A stretch of 64,000 nucleotides of DNA from Narcine bancroftii (taxonomy: Eukaryota). Below the pieces are notes generated by a model. It ran no database searches and was not told the DNA's origin. It saw only the letters and a program-made list of their open reading frames with translations. The position numbers and the translations under genes are program-made. The stretch covers positions 86,490,001 through 86,554,000 of the forward strand of contig NC_091473.1 of the NCBI RefSeq assembly GCF_036971445.1, written 5' to 3'. Positions 8,439-56,296 of the stretch are shown here, in pieces. Positions within the stretch are counted from its first letter, which is position 1; each line of letters opens with the position of its first letter.

Positions 8439-8627
8439 AATGCAATTGTAATCATAGAACTACTCAGTGTGTGTGGGATTCTTCACTACACCAACAAACT
8501 GGAAGTGGTATCCGTTGTGTGAACTGTATTGGTAACACTGAGGGAATACACTGTGAGAAATGCAAGGAAAATTATTATCCATTACATCAAGGAGGACACT
8601 GTCAGCCCTGCCGATGCAATTCCCTGG
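8439..8627 (+). CDS. LAMC2: LAMC2 exon 2 (LE domain)
   Basis: ctacag|AA TGC...CTG G|gtaagt; 189 bp; ECNCNHRTTQC...CVNCIGNTEGIHCEKCKENYY...CQPCRCNSLG. Confidence 0.93.
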
Positions 8628-17600: not shown

Positions 17601-20600
17601 GGGATATCCGTGAAAGATATTATTATCATTAGAAATTACAAAGAGCTTGGAAATTACTGTCCTCTCCTTGTGCACAGATACTGAAGGTTGGAAGGTACAG
17701 CACCGCCGTGGTCCTGATCTCCCTTTGATGAGACTATCGTCATCTCATGACATTGTTGCTCATGCCAAAGATGAATACCCAGTGTACTTTGTGGCTCCAG
17801 GTGAGTTGAGAGCAATTGTCAGGCAGTTCAGGTAATTTGTTCATTCCGGTTCACTTATACAACACATGTTTTAATGAAATGACCATCTGAGTATCACAGC
17901 ATTTCGATGGCTGTAATAAATTATACTTTGTGATCTCTAACTGAATTGCAGCTACTTTTTGGTTAATTTTGAGCTCCTTCTAAGAGTCAGCATCTTGCAA
18001 TTTTACAACAAATTCACAAATAGATTGTGAAGTCAACCTTAATGCTTTATCATACAGGTAGACATGTGGATCGTCAGTTTTGCTTGTATTATGATATTTA
18101 CAAGTACTTTGACAATCACAATCAATTTATTTCTATTCTGATAATGATTTGTTCCTCACATTCTTAACTAGACATCACTTTTATGAGGGATTTTATGTTA
18201 AAGGGAATGATTACATGTTCATTTGGGTGAAGTTCAAAAAAATTATCGATGTTCTAAATATTTGTCAATATCTGCAATGTTTATTTTTTTAAAAATATCA
18301 TTCCCCCAGCCTAGTCATTGAAATTGGTTTGGAAACTAACCTCAGGGAGGAACAGTTTTGCGATCTGAATGTTACGTTACTCCATCGGTTATGATCAAAG
18401 GTGCACTGGCAATTACACATGTTCTGGCCATCCATCCCACAGGATGATGATGGTTCTTTTTAGTCAGTTTGTGAGGTTTAATAGGAGGATTCCCCACTTC
18501 TCAGAAAGGAACAGCATGCGCATGAATGAATTTAGGTGAGTAGGGGTTGCACGGGTCCAGACCCACCCTCTCGACATCCTCTCCTGGATTCAGCAGCATA
18601 GAGAGGTCCAAGATGGCTGGGGGAAGTTTTCTTGCAGTGAATGGCCGGACCAAAGTGCAAGGGATACCCTTTCTGCACTTCACGGCACATGTTTGCTAGC
18701 TGGCCGTTCACCCTACAAGAGGGTTCTCCTGCCCTTTGACAGGTCTTGTTTTTGATCCTGCAGGGTGTCCAGCCACCTTTTGCACCAGGCAAGCCTGGTG
18801 CGAGAGCCGGTTTGGTTGCCGACCACCCGACGGGTAGTACTGGGTTATATGGTACCAGTAGCACTCCGACGAGTGACCTGACAGACAATTAGACATGTAC
18901 TTAAGGCTTAATCAGCAAAAAGCTCAGCCTCCCGTTGAAGGTGCATCATTACCAGAGTGCTCAGTTTCTGATTCACTGGATGCAAATAAAAGAGGTATTT
19001 GCCTCCTTCTAAGCCCCATACTCCTATTAATCCTGGCTGCATCAATGAGGTAAATGCAATTGGAGAGTCAGGAGAATGGGAGGCTCACAAGGGCCAAGAT
19101 ATAGTGAATTTCTGAAGTGTTTGGGCTTTGACAAAACCCTCTTTATATGGAAGGCTATCAGTGGCCCACAAAATATCTACATAAAGGACAGTTCAGTATG
19201 ATGCACTAGGTCAGACAAAGATAGCAGACACCTGGCAACACTGTTCACTTAATTTATATTCATCACAACATCTTATGCCATACATCAGTTGATCTGAACC
19301 TTTTTTTCCCCACTTACATACCACCTTAAGTAATTCCTGACTAACCACAGAGCATAGGATGCTATAGGTGCTCTGTGGTTTGTAAGGGGTTACTTAAGGT
19401 GGTATGTGAGTATTAAAAAAAAGGTCGAGAACCACTGGTTTAGCACGACAGCAGATCTTATTGAAGGATATTAGATTCTAAGGTTTTTTTGACAGGGGAG
19501 ATACTGAGAGGTTTCCCCTGAAGGGAGAATATAGAATTAAATTTTAGAATATGGGGTTGTCACATTGAGAGAGAGGGAAGCACAATTTATTTCCCTTGGA
19601 GGATTATGAATCTTTGGAATCCTCCACCCCAGAAAGTTGTACATGCTGTGTCAGTAACTGAATCCAAGGCTAAAACAGGCAGATCGTTGGACTACGGAGG
19701 AATTATAGGTTTTTTTTACCAAGACCAGAGCAGCTACTATCTTACTGAATGAAGGAACAGGTTCAGTAGGCAAATGGATCACTCCTGCTGGTGCACACAA
19801 GCACAAGGTTAAAGGATGAAGCCCTAGTGATTGGAAGGTTCAGTCGAAAGGCAGTCTCCCTTCGAAAGGCTACACCTTGGTGCTCACAGGTTAAATGATC
19901 ATTCACTAATCACTCATGAACCAGGTATAACTATACCAACTGGTAAATGAAAACAGGAAAAATGTGTAGGATGGCCCACTGTTCTTTCTGCTCCACAATA
20001 AATGCCATAACTCAAAACCTTTACCTGAATCAAGAAAAAAAAATTGATAAAACAGAATTCGTTATTACTATTTGGAGTGCTTCAGCTTACTATCATGCAG
20101 AATGTCAGGATTTTTCTTCATGTTCTACTCATTCTTTTCATCTTTAGCCAAGTTCCTTGGAAATCAAATATTGAGTTATGGGCAAAACCTTTCCTTCACG
20201 TTCTACTTGGAAAGGGATGATTCCTATCCATCAGTGGAAGACATTGTCCTGGAAGGAGCCAGTCAGACACTAAGTATACAAGTGAATGCGCAAAATAACC
20301 CAATGCCATCGATGAGTAAGGAGACATACAACTACAGGTAAATATAGCAGATATTTTTGAAATAAGACTGTAATTGTTCAGTTAATGCCCAACTATGACT
20401 GTTTATAATCAGACCAATGCAGCTCCAGCCATATGGAGCAAAAGTTACAATTCACTGTAGTTGTGAAATGAAGTACAGAGTTCAATGAGATCGAATAGGG
20501 GCAACTTAACATTGAGCCACAATAGTTTGTACATCAAAAGGATGTAGATTTTACTCTACAACAGCTATATAATTAACTTTATTTTAAGAATTAAACATTT

Positions 20601-23600
20601 ATAGAATAAATTATTTGTCACATTGGTTTTTGAAAGACTCAGCCATGTTTTGTATTATCCTATAACTGTCCTAAAAGACTAACGTTTTGCAGATGGTAGT
20701 TTTGACTATTAACCAAAGGCAAATAATTTTTGAATAATTTCCTTTTGTTTTCCAGACTTCATGAGAGTTTGGAGTATGGATGGAAGCCTTTTATAACTTC
20801 ATTTGAGTTTCAACGGGTGCTCAGTGATCTCAAGGCCATCAAAATCCGTGGTACCTACACTAGACAAAGTAAGGCCTTGATAAAACCTGAAGGAACTCAG
20901 TGGGTCAGGCAGCAGCCAAGCATCCATGGGTAGAAATGTTCAGTCAACTTATTGGGTTATAAAGAACAAATCTACAGATGGTGAAGTCTAGTTCAGTGCA
21001 CCGGAAAAACCCAGCAAGTCATGAAGTTTCCATGGAAAGCAAAAGGCAGTTGATGTTTTGGGCCTCAGCCCCTCTTCAGTGTGCCAAAATAAGTTGGGGG
21101 GGGGGAAGGGGAGAGGGGGCAAAGGGGAGAAAGCAGTTGGGAGTGGGAAGAAGAGAAAGATGAGATGTGATGGGAGAGGGGGCAGAAGATTGAGAAAGAT
21201 ACTCTCTGATAAGCAAAGGAAGGGAATGGGGAACTGAAAAAGGGAGTCAGGGAGATGAGGGAAATTGAAAGGCAGGACATGAAGCCATTTTCAGACCTGC
21301 CAGTGTGCCAATGGGGTGTGGAACTGAAGAGGTTGGCCACTGGGAGGTCCTTGTTGTTGCAGCCAACAGAGCAAATGCGCTCAACAAAGTTATCTCCCAA
21401 TCTCTGTCAAATATCCCCAATGTAGAGGAGGTTGCTAGAGAGAAAAGTAAGTACCATAGTAGGTAAAGAAGTGATGTGAACATTGAAACTAGATAGAAGT
21501 CAGGTTTACCTAAAATTAGAACCAATGTTGTCCATGTTCATGCTGTTAAGTTTAAGGCAGTTGAGGTTTTTTTTAAATCAAGTTTACATTTGGCCTCACC
21601 CTGGCAATGGGTTGTAATGGTGAAGTAAATCAAAATGGTTGGCTACAGGAAAAGGCAGTTGAATTTGTGTTAATTAAATGTATGAGGTACAATGTTGAAA
21701 AGTCAATTGAGAAACAAAAGTACCATAAAGATGTGAACAAAAGTTTGTATAAAGCATGTTAAGTAGACAGAAGCATCTGTCAATTAACCATGTTCATCTG
21801 TCAAATATTAATACAGAATCACAAATGAAGGACTATTATAGCCAGGCAAAGGGTCCTAAGCATTCTTGTGCAGATATTTGGACCAGGGAAGTTACATTCA
21901 GTTGATACTTCTTCAGCTATTAATTAATAACAACTTTAGTATCAAAGATTACTGGAATTGTAAAAGCTGTTTTCAGCAAGGTCATGTTATTTTAGAGTGA
22001 TAAATTATACAGCACAGAAAAAGACCTTCATATGTAACAGGTAAATGTCCATCAGCTCATTGGTCTGCAATAACCATCAAGCAATTTTACATTAATCCCT
22101 TTTTACTACACCACCCCTTCCCCTCATCCACTCACTCACTTACAATCCGGGGACAATTTATGGTGGGGAATTAACCACCTGTTGTGGAGTGTGGGAGAAT
22201 ACCAAAGTACCAAAATAAAACCCAGGCAGTCACAGAGAGAACAAATTGCACAGATAGCACCAGGAGTCAGGACTAAACCTGGGCCACTCTACTCCAGCTC
22301 TGCTATCTATGCCATAAATAAATAAAAAATGCAGGTCAAGACATCATGTGTGGAGAAAGAAATAGAGTTCATACTTCTGGTCAATGCCTCTTCATCAAAA
22401 TTGAAAAGGCCACTTTCTGTTTTCCAGTGTACTAATTGTAAAATCTAAGCTATCAAAAAAAATTGGAATCTGTATGAATTGCACTTGGCAATTACATTTG
22501 AAACAAAGAAATTTTTTTCCTTTCAATAACATCTGAATTGAATCTCGAATGGCATGTTGAAAGATTACAAGATGCCAATCTTAAAAAAACATGCTGCATT
22601 TGGTTCTGTTATTTTTGCTGAAATCCATTGCCAGGTGAAACTGGCCAGGAACCCATAAAGTTAGACTTTTTTGTAATTCCTCTCTACTTGAATTTTAGCT
22701 CAAATGAGACTCACTTTAATCCTCATTAGAAGGAATCAAAATGAACCAAGCATTCCTGATGCTGCTTGGTGCTCAATGGTTCCTAGCTTTCCTCTCCTGT
22801 GCACACACAGAGACAAGAAAGCCTTTGAAAGTGGGTCCCCTCCTTCATTATGCTGATCCACAATGTAGGTTTGTGTTGAATCCTCCCATTTCCCACTGAA
22901 GGGCTAATGGGTCTTTCTTTGGAGGAATGGCTGAGATCTTTTATCCAGTACTATCTATAACATACGAGGAAGGTTTTGGAATCCCTGAAGGAGCCCAACA
23001 AATTTTATATTCCATTTTTTCTTCACCTGCTTAAGATCTACAGTCTCAGGCTGAGTGTCTGCTTGTGGTGGATGGAAGCAGAAAGGCAAATAATGACTTT
23101 CAAAGTTTTTCAAAGCTTCAAAGACCATACACAAAGCAGTATTTCAAACCTCTGTTCAGGTCTCAGACACGAACTGGGTATTAGACAGGTCTCTCATAAC
23201 TGGAAACATCTCACGTTCAGGTTGTTGCAGGCCTTTAAATCGAAGCTCAGGAACTACATATAAACCAAGTTATTAGAGATATCAGTAATGTTTCAGTACT
23301 ATTCTTGGACTCCTTCATTCCTATCCTGCAGTGCTAAAAGCAGGAAAGTATTTTAAAGTACTGCTTTAGATTATCTGGTGACAGCATTAGCTAGACCAGG
23401 TTTAGAACCTTGTTCAAATTGAGTCATAGTAGCCACCAGACACTTAATTTAAGTACACCATGTCTTGAGTGTTATTAAACTATAGAAGTAGAAAACAGTT
23501 CAACAATATGGTGCAGAGAATAACCAAACACTTTGTATTCTAGCCCCTGGACACATTGATAATGTGGTCCTGCACACAGCCCGGCCTGGTGTGGGAAACC

Positions 23601-26600
23601 CTGCTCAGTGGGTAGAGAAGTGCACGTGCCCAACAGGTCATGAGGGTCGATTCTGTGAGAAATGTTCCAGAGATTACACAAGAGAACGCAACTACCTCGG
23701 ACGTTTCAGCCGGTGTGTGCCATGCAATTGTCAAAGCTCCAGTGAGACTTGTGACCCCGAAACTGGTAAGTCTGTTGATAGGTTGGCTTGGACTGGAGTT
23801 GCAAATGGTAGATTGTGACCTACATCTCATCTTTTAATGAACATTTGTGAGGGTCCTTGTGAAAATAGGAACTGAAAGAGAAATTGCTATATTTAATGCT
23901 GCTTAAAGGGTAGGAATTTGTTCTTGGTCATTTGTGTTAAATACACAAAAAATACGGTGATTGCACATTTATGAAATTCAGCTCAAACCATCATTTTCAA
24001 ATGTTTTACTATGGTAATCTTTAAAAAAAAACCAAAGATTCCATTACAAAATAGTGGAATTAAGTTATTCTAAAGATAAACTAAGATCTTTTTAGAACAT
24101 TGTACACTCTTCAATGTACAATCGATATTCATTGAATTATGATGCTTATTTTGCTTATTTCCATTGATCAGGTTGTCAGGATATCAACAGAACAACATCA
24201 GAAACAGCCATTTCTGACTTTGGACGGATCTGGTTTCTGATCTGAGAATGACAGGGCTATAATTCTGTTATCCCATTCAGTAAAGTGCCACTTTTAGAAA
24301 GCTGACTTAGTGTCATATTATTGCCTTAAAAAGAATTGGATCAGTGTTGATTGAATTACGGGAACACACCCATTTTTTGAATGATCATCTTCATAAATAA
24401 TCTTTGCTGTTGCCTTATAGGCTCCTGTTACATCAATGATCAATCCAGAAACAACTGCCCACATGGTTACTACACTGATCATTCAGAACCAAGTGGCTGC
24501 AGGTTATGCCCTTGCCCTGGTGGTACAGGTTGCACTGTGGCACCAGATACAAGAGAAGTAATTTGCGTGGGTTGCCCCGCAAAAACAATGGGTAAGTGTT
24601 GGGTGCAATCTATCAATCTTAAATGTGTTAAAGCTGCTTAAAATAAAAACACAAGAAAGAAGCACTGCTGAAGGTACTTCACACAAAGGAGACTGAAGTA
24701 TACATTTCAGGTTAGAACCAAAATGGTGTTATGCATTTCAAATAAACAGCCTAGTCAACTAATATTATAACATCTAACAATTACAGCACGGAAACAGGCC
24801 ATCAGGCCCTTCTAGTCCGCACCGAACCAAACACCCCTTTCTAGCCCCACCTCCCTGCACAATGCCCATAACCCTCCATCTTCTTCTCATCCATATACCT
24901 GTCCAACCTTTTCTTAAATAATACAATTGACTCCGCCGCCACTATTTCTCCCGGAAGATCATTCCACACGGCTACCACTCTCTGAGAAAAGAAGTTCCCC
25001 CTCATGTTACCTCTAAACCTCTGCCCCTTAATTCTTAACTCATGTCCTCTTGTTTTAATCTTTCCTCCTCTTAACGGAAATAGTCTATCCACATCCACTC
25101 TGCCTATCCCTTTCATAATCTTAAATACTTCTATCAAATCCCCTCTCAACCTTCTACGCTCCAAAGAATAAAGACCTAATCTGTCCAATCTCTCCCTATA
25201 CTCTAGATGCTTAAACCCAGGTAACATTCTGGTAAACCTTCTCTGCATTCTCTCCACTCTGTTTATATCCTTCCTATAATTAGTACCTGAAAAAAGTACC
25301 CTTTCTGCCAAGCTGTGCAATAGAACTTTCATAACAGTTTCCAAATGCAAACCTTCCCAGTAGTTAATCAATACATTTTAAAAGTCCCAGCTCTAGGTTA
25401 TTGTTGACTTATTCAACTTGGGCCTTAGATTAAACAATCACAAAACAAAGATCCTCTACTTTACTGCCTCACTGCACCTCAACCCCCTCACAATAAAGGT
25501 GTAGACCAGTAGTTCTCAACCTTTTTCTTTCTACTTACATACTACTTTAAGTAATCCCTATGATTAGTAAGGAATTTGCTTGAGAAAAATTGTCATTGTC
25601 CCTTTTCCTTTGGAGTTATGAAACCATGCACATAACAAGTCAATTAGGTACGATTAAAATAGTGGTTTTCAAACTTTTTCCTTTCTACCCACATACCACC
25701 TAAAGCAATCCCTTATTAATCACAGAGCACCAATGGCATGGGGATTACTTAAAGTGGTATGTGAGTGGAAAGAAAAAGGTTGAGAACCACTGGTGTAGAA
25801 CAAGACATTGAAAAAAAAGGAATTTTTTTTGTATCTATCAGCAAGGCAGATAAAATGTACCACCACATCAGTGAACCAGTATAGTCTACAGCTGTCCAAA
25901 TAAACATATTAGAAAATTTCAAACCTGCATGAAAGTTTATATTTACTGGATGATGGAGATCCCTTCACAGTATCTCAAAACACTGAAGGAATACCACCAA
26001 TAATCTCTCCCAGGCCAACATTCCCCAATTAGATTCAGCAAGACTCATTGGAATTAGACCCAAAACAGATACTGCACCCTGAGAGATTCATCATAGCAGG
26101 AAATTAGCTGGAGGATTGTGGAAACAATTCAAGGATATTCTTTGGAAAAAAAAGTATGTATCCTCATTGACTCCTGACCCATAAGCACTCAAATGCAGAA
26201 GGGATAATGTGCATCCTAAACTATCCACCATATATCTCACCAAGTACTTCTGCTCCATATGTATCCAAACAATCATCTTAGAACCCACACCACCTCAACT
26301 CCTTTGGTGATGAATTTATATAACACCTTATTAGAAAGATACCCCATTGCACAATAAATTATACTGCAGAATGTATTAACCAATGCAGTACTTCATTTAG
26401 AACTTCTATGGCACTTGTTTATTTTCTAGAGTACAACTTTAAGCAGAAAATGTTAGAAATACTTCGCAGGTCAGACAACATCTGTGGAGAGAAAAACTGT
26501 TAGCATTCAAAGTCAATAACTTGAAGCATTTTGTTTCTCTCACTACAGATTGTGCCTGGTTTGCTGAATGCTTCCAGCATTTTATCTTTGTTTTAAATTT

Positions 26601-29600
26601 CCTGTATCTGCAGTTATTTGTTTTTATAATTAGTCATTAATTAAACCTCAACCTACCTGCACTATTTGACATATACCATTCTCCTCCAACATTTCCCACA
26701 CCATTCAGTTTGGCTGAGAACACATTTCCCTTGTTCTACCTTTATCTGTTCAGATGTAGTCAGAGAATCACTGGGATTCCCAGTAATCAACTGTTGGATC
26801 CTTCAACAATGGTTTGCAAACATATGTTGATGACACAGTTTTATATCATCACCATCTCTCTGGAGTGTCTAAATTGTCAGATTGGTTTGCAGACTTTTCC
26901 TTCAACTATTGTCTTTGTTTACTATCTTAACTTTTGATCACAAACCACTGACTTTCCATTTCCTTAACATGTTGAACCTGATGCATATAGCTCTGAACCC
27001 GCAGTTGACACCATTTCCATTACTTTAAGCTTAGACATGAATATTACCACATGGGCCAAGCTGCCCTCATTCTAAGTTTCTGCTTGGCCATGTTCTAACT
27101 TGCACTGTCCCATTCACCAATCACGCCCATGTATGCTACTTAAACGTGTTCCCAGCGAATCAGCAAATCAATGACAATTCCCAATCCCTGCCTTCAATGC
27201 ACTCCAGTCTCAATCCCTGCCTTCGATGCACTCCAGTCTCAATCCCTGGCTTCAATGCACTCCAGTCTCAATCCCTGCCTTCGATGCACTCCAGTCTCAA
27301 TCCCTGCCTTCGATGCACTCCAGTCTCAATCCTTGCCTTCGATGCACTCCAGAGTTCCACTCTCAATTTTTTCCTTAAATTTCATTCCTCTATCAATACC
27401 TTGCACTTCCAAGGAACTCGGCTCTGGAATTCTCTCCGAAAACCTGCTTCTTTTTTCCCTTTAAAGATGCTCCTTGAAAATATTTTTAGAATGAGCATTT
27501 GGACTGCTGCTTTAATATGGCAACTTTGCTTTGCCTTCTCAGTTGCCACATGTCCTGGAATATTATTGCTACACTGGAGGTGCTTGTTATTATTGCAGCT
27601 TAATTTTATGTATCTGCAGCCACTAGATCTCACTGTTATGACATTCAGTCAATAATTACATAATTTTTTCTCAGTTCCAACAAACCAAATACCTCTTTTA
27701 TTTACCGTCATTATAAAGAATTACAACGAAGCCAACCCTTTCAACATCACTTTAAAGAAATGAATCTAAACCCTTTCTTGTTCATTGACTTAACAGAGAG
27801 TTGTGATTTGCAAAACTATTATCCATTCATGGCTTAGTGTACAGATTAACTATTCCTTTGTTAATTTAACATGACACAACTTAATTTAGTCAAAAGAATG
27901 TAGATGGATATTATAGTAATTAAGGAAAGGTTTGTAAAAGGGTTTTGACTCAAATCATTGACCCATTTCTACCCATGAACACTGTCTAATCTGCTGAGTT
28001 CATCCAGATTCCAGCATCTGCAGCTTTTAGGTTTCTCTATTATAGAAATTAGATGGTTAGGCCAAGATTGATTAGCGTTCAGTTAACACTAAACATTGAG
28101 ATTCAGATGCTTGCAGTTTTCATTTGTTGATCTTATTGTACCAATTCCCTAGGCAAACGGTGTGAAATGTGTGAAGAAGGATACTTCGGGAATCCCCAGG
28201 CAGGCAGATCCTGCCAGCCTTGTTCCTGCAACAATAATGTGGATCCCAATTCAGTTGGAATTTGTGATCAATGGACAGGTGAATGTCGGAACTGCCTCTA
28301 CAATACTGCAGGACACCACTGTGATACATGCAAACATGGCTTTCATGGAAACGCACTTGCCTCCAAGCCATCAGAAAAGTGCAAACGTAAGGGTTTGTTT
28401 TTAAATTTCATGTTGATAATTTTAATGAGGATGGATTCAGTGCTCCAAATCTGCAAAATGTAAAATTAATTTTACACTAAGCAAATTTCAGACACTCTTT
28501 GATGTTCTAGTTTGGTTTCATTCATTTTCTCAAAATCACTTGGTTGAGATTGCTCTGTTACAAATTCTCTTTGCATTGCTGGATTGTGATGTATCATCAA
28601 TGCATGGCAGATACCTAGTGAGATTTCCATTCTCAGAAACACAAAATGAGCTCATTTTCAGTAGATAATCAAGAAGAAGTTTTAAGATAAAAAGTTCTGG
28701 AGACATTATTGAACCAAGGTACAGAACCAAGCTGACAGGCTAAGTTTTTCTAGGCTTGAATAGAGGAAGAGATGTTTTCAGTTTATTTGTCACAATACTT
28801 TTAGAATAGTGAGAATGGTTCTTCTACAAACGGACCAACAGGTTATCTCTGGCATTACATACAGCTATGTGCAGTGCGCTACTAATAGAGTAACAGGTTA
28901 CAATAAAAAGAAAACTCTTCAGCCTTCTCCCTGATGCAGGAGATGTAGATGGAGTCCATGGAGAGGAGGGAACTTTGCATTACGTTCTGAGCTGCATTCA
29001 TTACCTTCTGTAGCTTCTTCCAATCTTGAATAGAGCTGCTCCTGTACCACCCTGTGAAGCATCCAGCAAGTATGTTTCTGATGTCTACTTCCACTGGGGT
29101 GCTCAGAATCTATATAATCAAATCCTACAGCCTCCTGCCACCTTTCACAAAGTGGTCCTAGGAAGTGATAATGACATTCTTTAAATTCTGACACATTTGA
29201 TTGAAGCAGCTGCAGAGGGTTATTTAGAAATCAAGGTGAGGGAGTGGTGGGAATGGTAGGTAGGGTTACAAATGGGTGAATGGCTGGTGGGAATATGAAA
29301 TCAGTCAGGGCTGTAAACCTCAAGCAAATGTTCCCAAATTCTCTTGTTCTCCCTTTGCAATTTCAGGCAACATGACAGGAAATGCAAACCCTCTTCTTTC
29401 ACGCAGTAAAGAAGGTTCACTAGGATGATTCCGGGAATGAAAGAGATATCATTCAAGGAACTTTTGACAGCTCTTGGCCTGTACTCATTGGAATTTAGGA
29501 GAATGAAGGGGAGAATGAAGGAGAATTGAAAGGCTTGTTCAGAGTAGATATAGTAAGGTTGTTTCCCATGGTGGGAAAGTCTAGGACGTGAAGGCACAAC

Positions 29601-32600
29601 TTCAGGATTGAAGGGTGTCTGCTTTGAACAGAGATGCATAGTCATTCCTTCAGCTAGAGGATGGTAACTCTGCGGAATTTGTTGCCACAGGCAGTTATCA
29701 TTGGATGTATTCAAGACAAAGATTGATAGGTTCTTGATTAGCCAGGGGATCAAAGGTTATGGGGAGAAGGCTGGACAGTGGGACTGAGTGGAAAAATGGA
29801 TCAGCTCATGATTAAATAGGGGAGCAGACTCAATGGGCTGAATGGCCCATTTCTGCTCCTGTATTCTGTGGTCTTAATATGTTTACTATTTTAAATTAAA
29901 GGAATGGATCATTTGTTATGGTTTTTCTCCCTTTGAGATCCAATTCCCATGATAACAGATTTTTCCTCTTACCTTTAGAGAACTATTACAAGAAGAAAAT
30001 GAGGGACAGATCCTAACTAAAAATAAATGATTTTTTATTTTTACAGCATGCAACTGTGACCCAAGAGGTTCTTGGTCTTTACAATGCAGGAGTGATGGGA
30101 CATGTGATTGTAAGCCAGGAGTTTTTGGAGATCGATGTAACCAATGCTCAGGAGACACTTATTACAACAGCACCACAGGCTGTGAGGTGTGCCCAAACTG
30201 TTACCTGGCAGTAAAAAGCAAGGTAGGTATCTACTCCTAACTTCACAAGAGTTTGAAGAAAGGTTGATACAGCTTATCAACTAAGGCTTTTGTAGAGTCT
30301 TCTTAATCTCTCCAAAACCAGGAATGTTGAAAATGTTTCCTTTTTTTTAAATAACGTGTCAGTCTAACTATAGATCTTTTTTAAACACATTTCCATTAAT
30401 TTAAAAAGTGACTAAACAGGGAAACCAATTGAAAAATTTGGGCCCAAAAATTCATGGAACAAGTTCATCTTCATATATGGGAACTAAAGATATAAAATTA
30501 TTAAAAAAAAATCTCAATCCCAATATCGTGAGAAGAAATAACTAGCAGAGATTACCTTTAATAAACATGAAATTTTGTGAAATCAACCACATGGAATAAC
30601 TATTGGCATACATTTTTCAGCTAATTCCCTCTCCCAAAAATTGACAATAAAAATTAAGTTGGTGGGGAACTGTAGAGCGGAAACATTGAATGATATTAGC
30701 AGCAAAAATGTAAATAATTTAGTGTGAAATTGCTTTAGCTACAACGCCATTAATCTTTTGCATTTTATATTTTAAGTTAAGTCAAGTTTATTGTCTTTTG
30801 ATTGTCCAAGTACAACCTGATGAAACTGCATTCTCTGGTCCTCAGAGAAAAACATGCAGACACAACCAGACATAACACAGATACAAACAGTGCTTATGCA
30901 GAACAAGTATTCATATATGCAAACAAATAAATAAATAAACAAACATTGTTTTGTGAAAATGAGAATCTCGAATGGTTATATGAGCACTTCCTTTGGCCAT
31001 TCAGCATTCTCACTGCCCATGGACAAAGCTGTTCCTCAGCCTGGTGGTGCTGGCTCTAATACTCCTGTATCTCTTTCCCACTGAGAGCAGCTGAAAGACG
31101 CTGTGCCCAAGGTGGAAGGGATCCTCAATAATTTTGCGTGCCCCCTTTAGTCAATGATCCCAGTAGATCACGCCGATGAGGTGGGGGGGGGAGACTTCAG
31201 TGATCCTCTCTGCCACTCTTATGGTCCTGTGGTCCATTTCTCTGTAGCAACTATAACACACAGTGATGCAGTCAGCCAGGACGCTTTAGATAAAGCTCCT
31301 GTAGAATGTTGACACAATGGTGTCCAGTAGCCTTGCCCGCTTCAGTCTTCTCAGTGAGGAGATGTTGTGTGTCCACAATTGGTCACTAGTTAAGTGAACT
31401 CCAAGGAACTTGCTGTTCTCTATTCTCTCCATGACAGAGTTCTTGATGTGAGTGGAGGGTGGTCATTCCTAGTCCTGAAGTCCACGATCATCTCCTTTGT
31501 CTTGTATATTACACCCTTTGTTAAAGCTCCAATGAAGCTGTAAATATTCATGATTTAATATACGAGTTATAATTTTACCAAAAAGAAGTAGGTGGAATAT
31601 GATAGATTCTAGTCTGCTATTTCTGGAACAATGTGATTTTGAAGCACATGTTAATGGTTGTGCATTCTACTGCTAGCCCTCTCAAGCTTTCCTTCATTAG
31701 GAGGTATTGGGCCAGTGTCACCCAGCCTATTCCATTCCAGTCAATTATCTAATTGCCATGCAGTCATTAATGTCAGTTCCTATCATAGCAACCATTATTT
31801 TGTTTGAAAGTAACTTTTAAAAACATCGATCGACTTTGCTAATTGGGATGACCTTACTCTATAGAGGTATTTACTAATTGGTTGAAAGATGGACCAATTG
31901 ATTTTTTATGTGTCATCGTTGACACTAACTTTGTGATACGAGTGCAGAGTGCAGGAAATGAATCAAGAAAACAAATTTTCTTGCCAAAGAAAGGCATAAA
32001 CATTTACTAACAGAAAAGTTGTCACTTGGAAAACCAGAGGCACAATGGAATAGGGCTTGCCATTATCACCACGGCCAAGCTCCATCTCCCATTACCCGCC
32101 TCATCACCCATTCAATCCCCAAAAGTTTCAGCACAAGCTTTAGTATTGACTTATTATCAGTAGTGCCCAGGCATAGTAAATAAACATTTTTTCATAATTT
32201 TCCCATTTCCACTGATCAATTTGAACTCTGAAGCTTTGATTATTATTATGCATCCTGAAATTACAGATAGCTCATAGTCCCTATTGTACCTCATTGCTGA
32301 TACTGAGCAATGTGACTCACTCTCTGGCACCCTTCACAATGATCTTGGGTCTTTCTTCATTCCACCCTTCACCAGTGAGAAAGACGTCCTTCTTAGTGGT
32401 AAAATCTAGATAGTTCCAATTACATAATGTCAGATTTTTAGATAATAACAAGTGCTTACAAACAGATTGTTAGAATTTTTTGATGAGCACTTTACCCTTT
32501 TTGTTTTACCCACCAGATAATGAAACACAAAAGTGTGGTCAGAGAAATGGAAATTCTCATCTCAAAGCTTAAGACAAAGGGCAGGCCAGCAAATGACAAG

Positions 32601-33781
32601 GACTTCGAGGAAAGATTGAGGAAAGCATCAACGATCCTCCATGAAATGATGACCACAGCTAAAGATATTGAAAGTAAACTTTACAGATAATATCAAACAT
32701 AATGTTACATTCTCTCCTACTGCATTTTCCTTTCCTTCTTTTATCATTGTGGGGAATAGACTGACTCTCAAGTGAGGAAGGAACTGCCCAGGTTTTTGAG
32801 ATGCTTTTCTCTCCATCATTGTTCAGGATGATCATGAATCACTGATTCAGATTTTGTGTAGAATTTATTCCAACAGTTGCAAGATATTTCTGTCATGATC
32901 CTAAATTATTCTGCTTCTTTCTGAAGGATGCTGTCAAACCATAGAACAAAGATTTCTGGAATCATTAAATGCCTAAGAAAGCTGAGGTGAAGTAAGGGTG
33001 AGGGTCACAGATTGAAAGCTTTTTTTCCCTCTTATTTTCCCCACTTTAAACAGTTTGTTCTATTGCCTCTATCAGTTGAGAACAAAGATTTTAGGATAAG
33101 GTAGGAGAAGTGACTGTCTAGTTGTGATTCAGGGTGAGAGACGACGATGTCCCAACTAGCTTCTTCTGTCCGGCCTGGTTCTTGTATTTCTTCCTTTTTA
33201 ATTGACCGCCTAGAGTAACTCTTCTCCCTCACCAGGTTTTGTGGCAAATTCATCAAGTTATTCATCTATATGAAATCTTGTCTTTAATTCTTAATATTAA
33301 TTTGGCTCCTAATCCTTTTCTTGCCCTATTTGGAATAAGTAAATCAGCTGATTTAAATTTGTCTGGGCTACAATCTCATGTAGTTGCCTTTGTTCTTCTT
33401 ATCGCCAGAAGAGCTATACTTATGAGATGGAAAGATGTTGTCTCTCCTACACATACTCAATGGTTTTCTGATGTGATGGCATGCTTGACTCTGGAAAAAA
33501 TTAGATGCTCTACTAATGCAATGAACCTTAATTTTCTAAATTTATGGGGACATTTCCTTAATTATTTTCAGAATTTATAAGATTATTGGATCCCATTTTA
33601 TGGTTTGGTTGTCCTTTCTTTCACTCAATAATGGAATATGCATGTTTAATCATAACTTCACACAGGAAGGGTTAGATTATTAGAATAGTTTTTGTTTTAT
33701 ATACATTTTGTTTTTGTTTCTTTCATAGTTTATTTACAATTTTTTTGGTTGGATATATATTCTTATTATACCTACATATGA

Positions 33782-33815
<34 letters not shown>

Positions 33816-34837
33816 TTATCTGAGGCGCCTGCAAGCTCACACCAAAACACAAGAGCAACTTGTCCGGGAACTACTCTTTGCAGATGATGCAGCTTTAGTT
33901 GCCCATTCAGAGCCAGCTCTCCAGCGCATGACGTCCTGTTTTGCAGAAACTGCCAAAATGTTTGGCCTGGAAGTCAGCCTGAAGAAAACTGAGGTCCTCC
34001 ATCAGCCAGCTCCCCACCATGACTACCAGCCCCCCCACATCTCCATCGGGCACACAAAACTCAAAACGGTCAACCAGTTTACCTACCTCGGCTGCACCAT
34101 TTCATCTGATGCAAGGATCGACAAAGAGATAGACAACAGACTCGCCAAGGCAAAGAGCACCTTTGGAAGACTACACAAAAGAGTCTGGAAAAACAATCAC
34201 CTGAAGAAACACACAAAGATCAGCGTGTACAGAGCTGTTGACATACCCACGCTCCTGTTCGGCTCCGAATCATGGGTCCTCTACCGGCATCACCTACGGC
34301 TCCTAGAATGCTTCCATCAGCGCTGTCTCTGCTCCATCCTCAACATTCATTGGAATGACTTCATCACCAACATCGAAGTACTCGAGCTGGCAGAGTCCTC
34401 AAGCATCGAATCCATGCTGCTGAAGATCCAACTGCGCTGGGTGGGTCACGTCTCCAAGATCGTGTTATATGGCAAGCTCTCCACTGGCCACTGAGACAGA
34501 GGTGCACCAAAGAAGAGGTACAAGGACTGCTTAAAGAAATCTCTTGGTGCCTGCCACATTGACCACCGCCAGTGGGCTGATATCGCCTCCAACCGTGCAT
34601 CTTGGTGCCTCACAGTTCGGCAGGCAGCAACCTCCTTTGAAGAAGACTGCAGAGCCCACCTCACTGACAAAAGACAAAGTAGGAAAAACCCAACACCCAA
34701 TCCCAACCAATCAGTTTTCCCTTGCAAAAGCTGCAACCGTGCCTGCCTGTCCCGCATCGGACTTGTCAGTCACCAATGAGCCTGCAGCAGACGTGGACAT
34801 ACCCCTCCATAAATCTTCGTCCGCGAAGCCAAGGTAT

Positions 34838-34875
<38 letters not shown>

Positions 34876-37800
34876 TGGAAAGAACTATATGGAATATCTT
34901 AGCCAACCAATCTCAACATCTATCTGATATCATTGTGCAGCACAGAAATGGGCCTTTCAGATAATATGCTGACCATTTTACCCATCTACACTAGCCTAAT
35001 TACCTGCATTAGGCCTGTATGCTCATGTACCATGCCAATTCAAATGGCTGTCTAAACTCCTCTCAAACCTTTCTTTAAAACATAGTCATTGCATTTGATT
35101 TCATCTTCTCTTCTGTCTGAGAGTTCCAGATATTGACCACTCTGTGCTTTAAAAAAAATCCCCAATTAGTTTTAAAACTCCTGTTCACCTTAAAATCGAT
35201 GCCTTTTTGGTTTTGATAACACTCCAATGGGAAGAAGTCCCCTCCCATTGGAAGAATGCCTCGCATGATATTATATATTTTTATTGGGATACTCTTCATC
35301 TTCCCTCTCTCCAGTAACAATAAACCTAACTAATCCACTGTTCTGCCATAATGAAGTCTTTCAATCCAGACAACATCCTGGTGAATCTCTTTTGCACTCT
35401 TTTGAGGTCACATCCTTAACTGGGAAAATAAATGGGCTCTGCTATATTTGATGAGTTTTCCCTCTGCTTAGCTGATGAATCCTTTGGTCTCTATTGCAAT
35501 CAGGTGAGATGCAGTAACTTGGCATGGATCGGACCAGCACAGTACCATATTACACTGTTGAATTTATGAAGCAGAGCTGCTGCTTGTGGAGTATTCAAGA
35601 GACGCAAATGTATCTAGCCTTGACAGTAAAATCTTATTCTTTCTACAGTTGATGATGAAAATAATCTCGATGAGCTGAAAAACCTTAACAGTAAGCTAAG
35701 TGTTGAAACTTATCGCCTGAACAACATTGCAAAATCTGTTGATGAGATTAGAAGGTTAACTTTAACATATGAAAATCGTGTCCGAATCACTGACAAGGTG
35801 TTAAGCAATGTCAGGACAAAGATCCAGAAAAGCAGGACAGAGATGAGGCAAATGGTAAGTCCCCATGTGATTAGAAAGTCTGAGATTTTTATTTGAAAGT
35901 AAATTCTCAGTGTGCACCCCTTGTGCACTTTAGCACAAAAACCAAAATAAAGACACTGATGTGCATATCGACAATGTATCAGGAAAGCCCTGGGCTTTTA
36001 AACCTTAACCCAGTGCAATAACAAATACAAAACATGCTTATTACTTCCCAGAAGCTACCAATACTATTATAAAAAAGTCCTTTTTTGGAATGTTATCCCT
36101 CATTATATTTCCTCCATTAGGACATAGCCCCTTAGAATTAGGTATCTTCTTGTTACAGCATTCTTTCTTTTCATGCGACTGAACATAGCTATGATATGAT
36201 TATTGTTACCATACTGCCTCTTGTATTAACACAGATACTGGTGAGACATAGTCCTTTGTCAGTTCATTATATGCCACTGTTGCTTGTTTTGCAATAGTAC
36301 TTGGATGTGCTACTATCCTTCACCTGGACATAATCTCTCTTGATTTTTATTAAACTATGATAGTTCCATTTGTCATAGACCTTTGTAATAAATATTGTCC
36401 TTCATAATTATACTACCACTTCTAAATATTCCTCTTTTTCATTAGAGAGTCTGATTATGTTTCTCTCTCATTATGTCATTGACACTTGTGACATTAGTAG
36501 ATAGAATTCAAACCAGGAATAGAAAAAATGACTACCTGGGCACATCGATTCATTCAGTTCATATAATTTTTAATTAAAAAAAAATTAGACATACAGCATG
36601 GTAACAGGCCCCTTTGGCCTATGAGCACGTGCTTCCCACTTGCACCCAATTGACCTACAACCCCGGTATGTTTTGAATAGTGAGAGAAAACTGGAGCCCC
36701 TGAGGTTAAACCTGACATACACAGGGAGAACGTGCAAACTCCTTACAGAAAGCGTGTGATTCGTACCCTGGACCCAATCACTGGCACTGTAACTGTGTTG
36801 CACTAACCACTATACCGACCATGCCACCCAGTCTAAAATCCACTTTTACTTTAATAGTTCCTTTGAACATGACATAAATGACCAACTATTAATCTCAAGA
36901 CGATACACCTCTACTTTTGAATCTATCAGTTGGAAGAATCAGCCTCTCAGCATCAACCTTCAGTATATCATAACTGTTTCTGATGACCAGATCTTCATAT
37001 AAAAATTATATGGTATAATTGAGCCAAGAAGATATCTGAGTGAATACAAATCATTGCTGAACAATTAGAAAAAGGAAAATCTAGTATCTCAGTTGATGCA
37101 TGCTTCCTTGAAACAGGACCCCATGTATCTTTTTTTAAAAAAAAATCAAAGTATGTGACCTTTTCTGCTGATGGGTAAACCATGGTTTCTGCTGGAATGG
37201 ACGTTGATGTGGATCCAGGCTCCCTTCTCAGAAGTTTAATCTCAAAAGATAGGCACTTGGATGGTTAAAAAGGGCACGGCCAGCATCTCTGTGAAGCAAT
37301 ATTCAATGCTTTCACGATAGAGGTGACATGCTGTTAATTGTAATGGTTGCGAAGATGAGATTTTGTTGCCAACTGTCATATTATTTCTTACAGCCATCAT
37401 TACCTACAGGTTCTAGTGGAGGAAATATCCCTACAGTTCTAGTAAATGAGGCTCAAAGACTGGCAGATAAGTATGTGGTCTATTTACTTGCTTCACTATT
37501 TCCATTGTGTTCCATTATCAATTTCATTCCATGACTTCAAGGATGAATATTAAGAACTTGCATTGTCAATTTTCAGGCATCAGAAAGATGCAGAGGATAT
37601 TGAACAGTTCAGTGGTTCTGCAAACAACTCTGCTTTTGAAGCCCTTACATTAATTACACGAGCAATCAAAGAAGATCAGCAAACAACAGGGTCCATCAAG
37701 CGACTAACTCAGCAGTGAGTGCAAACAAATTATCATCAGGAATATCCGTGACTACCTCAGTCTCGTGTTAACTTTCTGTATCCCTTGAAAACTTCAACTG

Positions 37801-40800
37801 CATACAGTTGGAAATAACAATTCATCATTGTTTCAACTGAAATCATTGAAGTTTTTAAATTAATGTTGCAAATGCTAAAAACAAATTGCATCATAAAGTT
37901 TGTAAGGGATATCATGATATTAAACTTTAAATTATACATTAAGTGTATTCATTATGAAAAAAAGCATGCCCTTGTTGGTTTGAAAAGCAATCTAGCCTCT
38001 TTATACAATTCCTGCCAATGGAGAGTAGCTGTCTTTACTCTAAAATGTAGTTGAAGGTAAATATGTGATTATTTATATTAATGATTTAGAGGAGGATGTG
38101 GTTAACGGGGTAAGAAAATATGCGGATGATATGAAAATAGGGGGAGTGGTGGATAGTGAGGTAGATTTTCTTGGATTACAGAAGGATTTGGTTTGTTTGG
38201 AAGAGTGGGCTGAAAGATGGCAGATGGAATTCAATATAGACAAGTGTGAGGTGTTGTGTTTTGGTAAAAATAACCAGAATTGGACATATACAGTTCAGGG
38301 GAGGGCATTGAGGCACGCAGAGGAGCAAAGGGACCTGGGGGTTATGGTACAGAGTTCACTGAAGGTGGATTCCCATGTAGACAGGGTGGTTAAGAAGGCA
38401 TATGGTATGCTGGCCTTCATAATTCATAGTATAGAGTATAGGAGCTGGGAGGTGATGCTGCAGCTGTTTAAGGCATTGGTGAGGCCAGGTTTGGAGTACT
38501 GTGCTCAGTTCTGGTCTCCAAGTTACAGAAAGAATAGAGAAAAAGTGGAGAGGGTGCAGAGAAGGTTTACAAGGATGTTGCCTGGCTTACAGCATCTGGA
38601 TTACAGGGAGAGATTAAGGAGACTGGGACTTTATTCAATGGAACGTAGACGACTGAGAGGGGACTTGATAGAGGTATTTAAAATTATGACAGGAATAGAT
38701 AGAGTAGACATAAACAGACTCTTTCCCCTGAGGGCAGGGGAGGTTGGAACAAGAGGCCATGAGTTAAGGGTAAGGGGGCAAAACTTTAGGAGAAATATTA
38801 GAGGTGGCTTTTTCACTCAGCAAGTGGTGGCAGAATGGAATGATTTTCCGAATGAGATAGTTGCGACAGGGTCCCTTCTGCCATTTAAGAGAAGGTTGGA
38901 TGTGTACACGGAGGTGAGGGGGTTGGAGGGTTATTGGCGGTGAGCGGAAGGTTTGAGTGGAGTTGTTCTCGTGAACCGGTGTGGACTCGAAAGGCCGACA
39001 TGGCCTGTTTCTGCTCCGTAAATGGTTATATTTTTAAAATATCTAAAATGAGTGAATGGCAGCTTTACTTTTCAACAGCAGAGGAGGCATTACAACCGGA
39101 GTTGAATAATTTCAAGGAAGTTAAGAATGCCCAACATGCAGTTTTACACAGATGATACAGAAATACCATGAATGTGGGAATGAACACAATCATGACATAA
39201 ACTCTGAAAAGAATTATGAATAAGATTAGTGGATTATGCAGAGTTAACCAACACAACTGGAGTATTGATATTGAAGCCTGCTCTATGTTTTTAAAAACAT
39301 AATGCTAACACATTTCATTCTGTTAGATCAAAACAGAAGAGTTACATGACAGAGGATATAGAAGAACAAGCAAACAGAATAACCACAAAGGCACAAAGAG
39401 CTAGTGAGAAGGCCAAGTGGAACTACAATGAGCTGAACAATTTACTTGCGATTAACATAACATCCCTTGAGGTTGGTAAATTATATGAGGCTGCTTATCA
39501 GGAGGAGGGTGGAAGTATGAACTCTCAAAGCACTTTATCAATGAGCAGCTTTGGAAGCAGCAAAAACATCAAATACAACAAACAATAGATTATGGCTGTG
39601 ATTTTTGACAGTACAATTAATTTGTCAATTAATAGTGATTGTGAAACTACTCTCTCAAGATTCCTTTTATTGTTATGCAATACTGCCAAAAAATGTAATA
39701 CAACACAAAACTTCCTTTACCTGTCGTAGGGCAAACAAAGAATCATGATTAACAGTGCCCAGCACCCCTTACAGTAAGAGGAAGACAAGCAAAAGAGAGT
39801 ACTTTCATAGACATGGGGTGTTGATGGATTCACCTCCAGCATTCCCGCTGCCTCAATAGCCGCACAGACCCCTGTTCGATCGATTGGCAACCTGAGCATC
39901 AGATCCAAACCTCCGACGATCTGGAAGCTTTCAGTGCCCGAGGGCCTTTGGGAGCCCTTCTTGCCCTCAGCACCTACTGAATCCAACAGCATAGACTGGT
40001 TCCCATGAGGCAGTCTCCAGCCTGTGTGGTCCTTCAGCAGGTGAGCCCCTTGCTGGTCTGTTGCAGTGGTCACCGTCCTGGGTGGTCACCTTCTATGCTT
40101 CTCCTTCTCAATGGAGGGAATGGATGTTCTCCCCATTTCTAGTGCCCTGCTCTAGTCTGCACCCCTTGTGGTATGCTGCCCAGCACATGCACCATCATTT
40201 TGGGCACAGACCACGTGGTTGTAGGATTTGAAAAAAAAACTGATAGTTCCTTTACAGAGTAGTTGGGATTAGGACCGTGGGAGGGCTCTGTGGAGCTGAA
40301 CTGTGTCATCACTCCCCACTCTCCCGCACCAACAGCAGTGCTGCCATTACACCAACTCCAGCAGCACCACCATTTTTGTTTTAAAAGCCACTTCCCTTGC
40401 TTGAGTAGGAAAAGAACTCTAGTTTTTGTGCCTCTTCAATGCCCTCAAATAAGCCAGTTATTTAATACATTACACAGGTATGAATCTAAAAGACCAGCTA
40501 GGAATGTGCTGTTGTGACCCTTAGCTGCTAGTGAGTTAAAGGATCTCATTTGGTGTTCAGAATTGACTTCAATCCTAGAGAAGTATAAAACATTTCCCAA
40601 AAGGTTGCGGTGTTTGTCGAGTTCCATTATCATTAAAAATTAGCTTCTTGTATTGATTTGGGGTGATTTTAAATATAGACCTCCTCCTGCTTCTACATCT
40701 GACACAGACTCAGTGAGAAATGATCATACAAGGATAATTTATTTCAAGTTAATTGCATCCATAATATAAAAGAGGTTCCTTTATTCTTCCCATTTCTGTG

Positions 40801-55900: not shown

Positions 55901-55953
55901 CATTTGCAACTATTCTTCCTGTTTTTGTATGTAAATTTCATTTTTACAAGTCA

Positions 55954-55959
55954 AATAAA
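55954..55959 (+). terminator. Candidate LAMC2 polyadenylation signal (alternatives at 53058 and 55757)
   Basis: AATAAA preceded by U-rich sequence with TGTA motifs (tttttgtatgtaaattt) and followed by T/GT-rich sequence; would imply a 3' UTR of about 3 kb. Confidence 0.35.
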
Positions 55960-56057
55960 ATATTAAAAATAGTTGTTCACAAGAAAATTCTGTATTTTGA
56001 TTTCAATGGTGAAATATACGCCAAAAGGCAGAGCCGATGATTTTGTGCATAAATGTG

Positions 56058-56296
56058 TGTAGTGTGCGTCGAAAAAACCAAAGACTTGTTGATCCAAACC
56101 AAGGCTTTTATTCACTAAAAGACTGGAGCATATCACAAGTAGGTCGACCAGTCCAGAATGACCTGGTCTGGCTAGGAGCAATCCTTTAAGACCTGCCAGT
56201 AGGTGTGGCTACACTCTCAGCCAATCACAGTCATCCTACACTACCATCTGTACATATGTACATGTACACATTGGTGATAGAATCTGTACTATCACA
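56058..56296 (-). mobile_element. Solo LTR (probably Gypsy-like), 239 bp
   Basis: TG...CA ends; 5-bp TSD atgtg (56053-56057 and 56297-56301); minus strand has ATTGG box, TTAAAG and AATAAA in LTR order. Confidence 0.82.

What the first reader, a model, noticed from the sequence alone, without database searches (positions are those of the whole stretch)
28221..28313. Gamma-2 chain with an apparently intact gamma-1-type nidogen-binding site
Seen: exon 11 encodes [31 protein letters not shown]. Established: laminin gamma-1 binds nidogen through the loop NIDPNAV (Asp, Asn and Val are critical) plus the Tyr of CIYNT. Mammalian gamma-2 has NVDPSAS and CIHNT, and its weak nidogen binding is attributed to those two serines. 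Here Asp, Asn, Val and Tyr are all present, with only Ala to Ser at the intervening position. Inference: in this lineage laminin-332 could bridge directly to nidogen and collagen IV, an ancestral epithelial anchoring mode lost in mammals.
Basis: partly seen in the sequence, partly recalled or inferred. Interest (0 to 1): 0.75.

Follow-up and report, generated by a model that had tools for sequence, protein, structure and literature searches.

The report
Ray laminin gamma-2 keeps nidogen site
This ray's laminin gamma-2 gene keeps the residues that gamma-1 uses to grip nidogen, as the gene does in sharks, chimaera and coelacanth, so it likely still binds nidogen, probably more weakly than gamma-1, and the weak binding of mammalian gamma-2 is likely a later loss.

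Summary
Exon 11 (28153-28386) encodes NVDPNSV...CLYNT and is spliced in public contigs. The gene matches the Narcine bancroftii protein annotated 'gamma-1-like', but it is most likely the LAMC2 orthologue. It has no LN domain and shares gamma-2's deletions. Three trees group it with gamma-2, and Narcine has a separate full-length LAMC1 on a contig of the same length.

The site is not special to this lineage. Asp, Asn and Tyr are kept in 12 of 12 chondrichthyan gamma-2 chains, coelacanth has a perfect NVDPNAV, and gar, cyprinids and passerines keep Asn-Ala-Val/Ile. It is lost in the sampled placental mammals, a varanid and three acanthomorph fishes.

'Intact' needs a caveat. Ala is fixed in gamma-1 (115 of 115 motif hits) but Ser or Leu in 10 of 12 chondrichthyan gamma-2 chains. 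Gamma-1's extra constraint on this module is absent, and the neighbouring module lacks four residues. Asp and Tyr are not diagnostic. Most likely this is a retained ancestral site with intermediate affinity. Binding is untested, and the collagen IV bridge is doubtful for skin. In passing, passerine gamma-2 looks gene-converted from gamma-1 in this exon. No earlier scan finding matched.

The parts
8438..52932 (+). LAMC2-type gene, coding exons 2-23 (residues 34-1191 of P0002, plus stop); exon 1 not found in the window
   Evidence: exact exon mapping; Pfam EGF_laminin and Laminin_B, no Laminin_N
28153..28386 (+). exon 11: end of LEb2 and all of LEb3, the nidogen-module homologue
   Evidence: AG/GT ends; joined to neighbouring exons in public contigs; best PDB hits 1KLO, 1NPE_B, 1TLE
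28221..28382 (+). LEb3 module (Cys512-Cys565), eight cysteines, no indel against mouse gamma-1 III4
28236..28256 (+). loop-a heptapeptide NVDPNSV: Asp 28242-28244, Asn 28248-28250, Ser (Ala in gamma-1) 28251-28253, Val 28254-28256
   Evidence: codon listing
28299..28301 (+). Tyr of CLYNT, the Tyr819 equivalent (numbering recalled)
28194..28220 (+). last loop of LEb2 (PQAG-RSC), four residues shorter than in gamma-1; LEb2 makes secondary nidogen contacts in the solved complex
   Evidence: alignments; PMC4227867 passage
24420..24590 (+). exon 10: gamma-2-type altered LEb1 (C-Y-I-N-D), Asp at 24438-24440 aligned with the Asp after the human BMP-1 cut
   Evidence: human G434/D435 cut from PMC3544776 passage
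30047..30222 (+). exon 12: single last LE module, matching gamma-1 residues 992-1051; the two gamma-1 modules in between (about 892-991) are absent, as in other gamma-2 chains
   Evidence: tblastn of Narcine LAMC1; exon 11-12 join
52921..52923 (+). Glu third from the C-terminus (VERP), present in gamma-1 and gamma-2 and absent in gamma-3
   Evidence: PMC5785718 passage

Best explanation
This gene is most likely the ray's laminin gamma-2 (LAMC2), and its LEb3 loop keeps the ancestral Asp-x-Asn-x-Val motif, so it likely binds the nidogen G3 propeller as gamma-1 does, probably with lower affinity. Shown here: the motif, the gamma-2 domain layout, the spliced exon and the spread of the motif across vertebrate gamma-2 chains. 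Inferred: gamma-2 arose by duplication of gamma-1 before sharks and bony fish split and inherited the site. Cartilaginous fish kept the Asn and a Val/Ile/Leu while second-tier residues (Pro, Ala, Gly) drifted. The site then decayed separately in placental mammals, a varanid lizard and acanthomorph fishes. The LEb3 module would stay on the chain after a BMP-1-type cut in LEb1, so nidogen would give this non-polymerising laminin an extra tether into the basement membrane, perhaps through perlecan as much as collagen IV. It would be an accessory anchor, not the main one.
For: Orthology: gamma-2 clade with SH-aLRT 97 on the short arm before exon 11, 94 on the coiled coil and 88 on both joined. AU tests reject grouping with gamma-3 (p 0.0008) and a shark-specific duplication of LAMC1 (p 0.009). 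No LN domain; shared altered LEb1 and shared loss of two LE modules. A separate 1618-aa Narcine LAMC1 lies on a contig of the same length with near-consecutive RefSeq accessions. Motif: Asp, Asn and Tyr in 12 of 12 chondrichthyan gamma-2 chains, with Val in 10, Ile in 1 and Leu in 1. Coelacanth has NVDPNAV and CLYNT, gar HIDLNAV, passerines NVEPNAV, cypriniforms DQNAV/I. The ray module is only 61% identical to its own gamma-1 and 60-67% to all 12 gamma-1 chains tested, so the residues were not recently copied from gamma-1. Asn is specific: 0 of 50 beta-chain equivalents have it. Ser at the Ala position occurs in gamma chains of cuttlefish, tunicate and leech, whose binding is untested. Asp, Asn and Val are the key residues in gamma-1 (PMC4227867; PMC11260871). 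The AlphaFold model (pLDDT 85.5) matches 1NPE_B best, E 8e-11, rmsd 2.4; this shows fold only. Recalled, not read: restoring Asn and Val in human gamma-2 III4 recovered most of the binding (Mayer 1995; only its title seen).
Against: Ala is fixed in 115 of 115 motif hits in 112 of 113 mostly gamma-1 proteins, and NIDPNAV is unchanged in 15 of 15 chondrichthyan gamma-1 chains. Chondrichthyan gamma-2 has Ser in 9, Leu in 1 and Ala in only 2 of 12, and Pro-to-Ser in 3 of 12. In six matched species LEb3 is the most constrained gamma-1 module (41 of 46 non-Cys sites invariant against 219 of 292 in other LE modules, p 0.04). It is not constrained in gamma-2 (25 of 46 against 109 of 176, p 0.40). With about 40-50% of sites invariant anyway, an invariant Asn alone is weak evidence of selection. 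The four-residue gap in LEb2 may cost secondary contacts. An AU test does not reject chondrichthyan gamma-2 as sister to all gamma-1 (p 0.18), and the exon-only tree pulls it towards gamma-3 (88/89; that gamma-3 pair carries a long-branch warning). The chain lacks the L4 cysteine described as unique to gamma-2. Reviews state that nidogen is not supported as the main laminin-collagen IV bridge and that double-null skin has a normal junction.
Confidence: 0.55

Rival explanations
1. Relaxed vestige: the loop no longer binds nidogen usefully. Asp, Asn and Val survive because sharks and rays evolve slowly and the residues help shape the turn, and the site is decaying as it did in mammals.
For: No extra constraint on LEb3 in chondrichthyan gamma-2; Ala and Pro drift, up to DSNLV in Mustelus. 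LEb2 loop deletion. Asp and Tyr are common in beta chains. At least three separate losses elsewhere show the site is dispensable.
Against: Asn is unchanged in 12 of 12 chondrichthyans and in coelacanth, gar, cypriniforms and passerines, yet absent from 50 of 50 beta-chain loops, so it is not a generic structural residue. The branch leading to chondrichthyan gamma-2 is long (0.66-0.75 changes per site), yet the triad survived.
Confidence: 0.25
2. One reading: the site has gamma-1-level (nanomolar) affinity, and ray laminin-332 is anchored directly through nidogen to collagen IV as a principal epithelial anchoring mode.
For: All four named residues are present; skate and sevengill shark have NVDPNAV, identical to the human gamma-3 motif; coelacanth also has a perfect site.
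Against: Relaxed constraint compared with gamma-1. The nidogen bridge is not supported as the main linkage, and perlecan is implicated in epidermis. The alpha3 and beta3 partners and skin expression were not examined.
Confidence: 0.15
3. The gene is not the LAMC2 orthologue but a separate ancient short gamma paralogue, so the motif says nothing about gamma-2 history.
For: NCBI names most of these proteins 'gamma-1-like'. The AU test does not reject a sister position to all gamma-1 (p 0.18). The chain lacks the gamma-2 L4 cysteine and has a complete last LE module.
Against: Three trees group it with gamma-2 (SH-aLRT 88-97). It shares the same truncation point, the same altered LEb1 and the same two-module deletion. 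NCBI names the Pristis and Callorhinchus orthologues gamma-2 or gamma-2-like. No second gamma-2 candidate appeared in sharks or rays. The coelacanth chain carries the site regardless.
Confidence: 0.05

Closest known systems
Mammalian laminin gamma-2 (LAMC2), module LEb3 / gamma2 III4
   Same: No LN domain, the same start module, L4, altered LEb1 with Asp at the BMP-1 position, two LE modules missing after LEb3, 23 exons (22 mapped plus one upstream; the human count of 23 is recalled), C-terminal Glu.
   Different: Keeps Asn, Val and Tyr where the sampled mammals have Ser or Arg, then Ser, Pro or Thr, and His. Lacks the L4 cysteine. The last LE module is complete with eight Cys, not truncated.
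Laminin gamma-1 LEb3 (III4) nidogen-binding module, PDB 1KLO / 1NPE / 1TLE
   Same: Same module and fold (rmsd 2.4), Asp-x-Asn-x-Val and Tyr in register, 60-67% identical to gamma-1 LEb3 across vertebrates.
   Different: NVDPNSV instead of NIDPNAV; four-residue gap in the LEb2 loop; no extra evolutionary constraint; sits on a short chain without an LN domain.
Laminin gamma-3 nidogen site (NVDPNAV)
   Same: Val at position 2; skate, sevengill shark and coelacanth gamma-2 have the identical heptapeptide. Gamma-3 is reported to bind nidogen (Gersdorff 2005, title seen).
   Different: Gamma-3 has an LN domain and lacks the C-terminal Glu; grouping with gamma-3 is rejected (AU p 0.0008).

Membership tests
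LAMC2 (laminin gamma-2) | No LN domain; short arm starts with LE modules | tested here: met
   Pfam finds Laminin_N in Narcine LAMC1 but not in P0002; orthologues are 1187-1191 aa
LAMC2 (laminin gamma-2) | Groups with known gamma-2 in trees built without the motif exon | tested here: met
   SH-aLRT 94, 97 and 88; a sister-to-gamma-1 position is not rejected by AU (p 0.18)
LAMC2 (laminin gamma-2) | Altered LEb1 with Asp after the BMP-1 cut; two LE modules missing after LEb3 | tested here: met
   cleavage itself not tested
LAMC2 (laminin gamma-2) | Extra cysteine in L4, described as unique to gamma-2 from human to zebrafish | tested here: not met
   Ser at that column in Narcine and Heptranchias, Cys in the six bony-vertebrate gamma-2 rows printed. 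I read this as a bony-vertebrate innovation rather than a defining feature of the orthologue group.
LAMC2 (laminin gamma-2) | Tandem position beside LAMC1 | tested here: inconclusive
   Contigs of the same length hold both genes in Narcine, Leucoraja, Mustelus, Pristis and Mobula, and the Narcine accessions are near-consecutive. No coordinates are available, and no LAMC1 exon lies in the window.
LAMC2 (laminin gamma-2) | Assembles with alpha-3 and beta-3 into laminin-332 | not testable with these tools
   no genome is held for this window and no protein data were available
gamma-1-type nidogen-binding module | Asp800, Asn802, Val804 in loop a | tested here: met
gamma-1-type nidogen-binding module | Full heptapeptide N(I/V)DPNAV | tested here: not met
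   Ser replaces Ala in Narcine; met in Leucoraja, Heptranchias and Latimeria
gamma-1-type nidogen-binding module | Secondary contact surface in LEb2 | tested here: inconclusive
   four-residue gap in its last loop; which residues touch nidogen could not be checked
gamma-1-type nidogen-binding module | Nanomolar binding to nidogen G3 | not testable with these tools
LAMC3 | LN domain present, C-terminal Glu absent | tested here: not met
   AU p 0.0008
LAMC1 | Full-length chain with LN domain, in the gamma-1 clade | tested here: not met
   Narcine LAMC1 is a different protein, P0380

The most novel reading that the evidence does not exclude
Nidogen binding is the ancestral state of laminin gamma-2 and still works in sharks, rays, chimaera, coelacanth and perhaps birds. 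The nidogen-free laminin-332 of the textbooks is a derived state reached several times. In some lineages the binding exon has been refreshed by gene conversion from the tandem LAMC1 gene: passerine gamma-2 matches neoavian gamma-1 at up to 48 of 50 residues here against 29-64% in other regions.
Probability: 0.35. Interest if true: 0.62.

Novelty: new variant of a known kind. Interest (0 to 1): 0.4.

Why it matters
Laminin-332 is taught as the laminin that neither polymerises nor binds nidogen and so relies on collagen VII and other partners. That view rests on mammalian protein. If non-mammalian gamma-2 binds nidogen, the rule is a mammalian specialisation. The natural series (coelacanth and skate perfect, ray and catshark with Ser, Mustelus drifted, birds with Glu, mammals lost) would then be a ready-made panel for asking why epithelial anchoring laminin shed the nidogen link. 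It is a modest, testable correction for matrix biologists, not a new system. It also shows that the 'gamma-1-like' label on most shark and ray copies is likely wrong.

Tried and rejected
Genome-level synteny: no genome is held. No LAMC1 exon lies in the window, and reading the minus-strand frames of 52950-64000 by eye showed no recognisable neighbour gene. Recent gene conversion as the source of the ray motif: rejected, since identity to its own gamma-1 (61%) is no higher than to other gamma-1 chains. P0022 (manakin, 1170 aa, gamma-2-like length) first looked like a bird gamma-2 with a perfect site; it is a partial LAMC1 model by its name and sequence and was used as gamma-1. The exon-only tree is poorly resolved: gamma-2 is never one group in 200 bootstrap trees, but AU p is 0.08, so it does not prove conversion. 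A complex model with nidogen was not run: none of the proteins held had three YWTD-type repeats, and a textbook pair would tend to pass by likeness anyway. Sequencing runs: no RNA holder is listed as such, so nothing is said on tissue or level. The primary mutagenesis papers (PMC452258, PMC395285) and PMC3365761 are not held, so the measured effect of changing Ala803, Pro801 or Tyr819 could not be read. Rows dropped: two short rows; one search used 11 of 12 chondrichthyan chains; the trees used 37, 35, 32 and 20 of the 69 labelled proteins. One 'LE3' row had only 14 ungapped sites. The scan's earlier findings gave nothing relevant.

Full report
Observation. Window 28221-28313 (+) reads [31 protein letters not shown]. 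It lies in an exon at 28153-28386 with AG and GT ends. The exon's best solved relatives are the mouse gamma-1 nidogen-binding fragments 1KLO, 1NPE_B and 1TLE, and the LEb3 module aligns without a gap. The exon is 100% identical to part of P0002, which NCBI names 'laminin subunit gamma-1-like [Narcine bancroftii]', 1191 aa. Residues 34-1191 map to 22 exons between 8438 and 52929; residues 1-33 were not found in the window. The motif exon is therefore number 11 if one exon lies upstream. Contigs from two runs of one organism join it to its neighbours without a mismatch, and a run of a second organism shows the same joins. These runs are only guessed to be RNA, but the joins skip the introns exactly.

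Which gene. P0002 has LE and L4 domains and no LN domain. A second Narcine protein, P0380 (1618 aa), has the LN domain and is the true LAMC1. Both lie on a 257,710,454-base contig with RefSeq accessions XP_069794299...301 and ...303. Four other elasmobranchs also show the two genes on contigs of equal length. That is indirect synteny only. Trees built without the motif exon group the chondrichthyan chains with coelacanth, gar, teleost, bird, lizard and mammal gamma-2. Support is SH-aLRT 94 on the coiled coil (37 rows), 97 on the short arm (35 rows) and 88 on both (20 rows). AU tests reject a union with gamma-3 (p 0.0008) and with chondrichthyan gamma-1 (p 0.009), but not a position as sister to all gamma-1 (p 0.18).

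Shared structural changes favour gamma-2: the same start module, the same altered LEb1 and the same two LE modules missing after LEb3. The LEb1 Asp aligns with the Asp after the human BMP-1 cut (PMC3544776, passages). The C-terminal Glu that gamma-3 lacks is present (PMC5785718, passages). Against a perfect match, the L4 cysteine described as unique to gamma-2 is absent and the last LE module is complete; both look ancestral.

How widespread. All 12 chondrichthyan gamma-2 chains found keep Asp, Asn and Tyr. Val is kept in 10, with Ile and Leu once each. The Ala position has Ser in 9, Ala in 2 and Leu in 1, and Pro is Ser in 3. Coelacanth LAMC2 has NVDPNAV and CLYNT. Gar has HIDLNAV with His, and two passerines have NVEPNAV. 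Cypriniforms mostly have DQNAV or DQNAI, without the Tyr. The site is lost in the four named placental mammals (DPSAS, DPRAP, DPRAS, DPRVT) and in three acanthomorph fishes. In Komodo dragon the model lacks the Val and has a 13-residue gap in the module (one species, possibly a model error). No gamma-2 of amphibians, lungfish, bichir, turtles, crocodiles, monotremes or marsupials was retrieved. The state is therefore most simply ancestral for gamma-2, with at least three separate losses, and is not peculiar to rays.

How intact. Reviews and one primary paper name Asp800, Asn802 and Val804 as the key residues and add contacts from LEb2 (PMC4227867, passages and Discussion; PMC11260871, passages). 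PMC4227867 also measured only about a 30-fold loss for Asn-to-Asp, against 25,000-fold reported earlier. The gamma-2 NVDPSAS statement comes from PMC2185082 (passages). Mayer 1995, Poschl 1994 and 1996, Takagi 2003 and Behrens 2012 were seen only as titles or as cited in reviews; the rescue of gamma-2 by restoring Asn and Val is recalled. In 50 beta chains the equivalent loop has Asp 41 times and Tyr 36 times, but Asn never. His replaces Tyr in 8 of 115 gamma hits. The informative residues are Asn and Val.

The 'intervening' Ala is not trivial. It is fixed in 115 of 115 motif hits from 112 of 113 mostly gamma-1 proteins, and the heptapeptide is unchanged in 15 of 15 chondrichthyan gamma-1 chains. 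Ser does occur there in cuttlefish, tunicate and leech gamma chains. In six species with both genes, LEb3 is gamma-1's most constrained module (41 of 46 sites invariant against 219 of 292, Fisher p 0.04). In gamma-2 it is average (25 of 46 against 109 of 176, p 0.40). The LEb2 loop next to it is four residues short in all 12 chondrichthyans. An AlphaFold model (pLDDT 85.5) matches 1NPE_B at rmsd 2.4, which confirms the fold and nothing about affinity.

Mechanism. Best reading (0.55): loop a of LEb3 would insert into the nidogen G3 propeller as in gamma-1, with affinity between gamma-1 and mammalian gamma-2. The module lies downstream of the predicted BMP-1 cut, so it would remain on the mature chain and give a non-polymerising laminin an accessory tether. 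The ray motif was not refreshed from its own LAMC1: the module is 61% identical to it and 60-67% to all 12 gamma-1 chains tested. The triad has therefore survived on a long branch by itself. The main rival (0.25) is a relaxed vestige. Reviews say genetics has not supported nidogen as the main bridge, that perlecan is implicated in epidermis, and that nidogen double-null skin has a normal junction (PMC3544787, passages; PMC11260871). Mouse gamma-2 is also reported to bind nidogen-1 through L4-LEb1, so even the mammalian contrast is not all-or-none.

A side result. Passerine gamma-2 matches neoavian gamma-1 at 45-48 of 50 residues from the loop to the end of the module. Its LEb3 is 89-91% identical to Vidua gamma-1, against 38-64% in other short-arm regions and 29% in the coiled coil. 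Coelacanth paralogues share a stretch before the module (77% against 62-69% for other gamma-1 chains). Bird and mammal gamma-2 fall among amniote gamma-1 in the exon-only tree (80/85), though gamma-2 monophyly is not rejected (AU p 0.08). The lineage-specific margin is small (dog gamma-1 scores 46 of 50), so this suggests, but does not show, conversion between the tandem genes. LAMC1 and LAMC2 are tandem or separated by dhx9 in teleosts (PMC9504374, passages).

Novelty. Ten searches of the held library listed no paper on a nidogen motif in non-mammalian gamma-2 or on LAMC1-LAMC2 conversion. I judged most by listing and abstract start and read passages of eight papers (also PMC3618921). Subscription papers on laminin evolution are not covered, so prior notice cannot be excluded. 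No supplements were read. The parts are all known; the combination of a gamma-2 chain with a gamma-1-type loop is a new variant of a known kind. Interest 0.4: a real and testable correction to a textbook contrast, weakened by signs of relaxed constraint and by the absence of any binding data.

Noticed in passing
P0138 and P0275 (passerine LAMC2) against P0284, P0022 and other bird LAMC1: LEb3 is 89-91% identical to Vidua gamma-1 while other regions are 29-64%; this suggests gene conversion between tandem LAMC1 and LAMC2. Chimeric gene models were not excluded, though two separate assemblies agree.
   Followed up: partly
P0270 and P0282 (coelacanth LAMC2 and LAMC1): Coelacanth gamma-2 has a perfect NVDPNAV plus Tyr, and both paralogues share a lineage-specific stretch just before the module; it is a better test case than the ray.
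   Followed up: partly
window 30047-30222: The last LE module is complete with eight cysteines in cartilaginous fish, whereas coelacanth, bird, lizard and mammal gamma-2 have a truncated one.
   Followed up: partly
window 20147-20338 (exon 7, L4): The L4 cysteine described as unique to gamma-2 is Ser here, so the unusual L4-LEb1 disulfide that holds the cut fragment in mammals is predicted to be absent in sharks and rays.
   Followed up: partly
P0276 (Varanus komodoensis LAMC2): 13-residue gap inside LEb3 removing two cysteines and the Tyr loop; a real loss or a model error.
   Followed up: no
P0002-P0012: Most shark and ray copies of this gene are named 'laminin subunit gamma-1-like' by NCBI although they appear to be LAMC2.
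   Followed up: yes
window introns, e.g. 33676-34776 (+), 38044-38940 (+), 24844-25377 (-), 61710-62222 (-): Fragments that look like LINE reverse-transcriptase ORFs (family assignment recalled, not searched); very high contig depth over several introns fits common repeats.
   Followed up: no
window 10326-11394: Long open frames on both strands with short repeated units and a charged, low-complexity minus-strand frame in intron 2; probably a transposon remnant.
   Followed up: no
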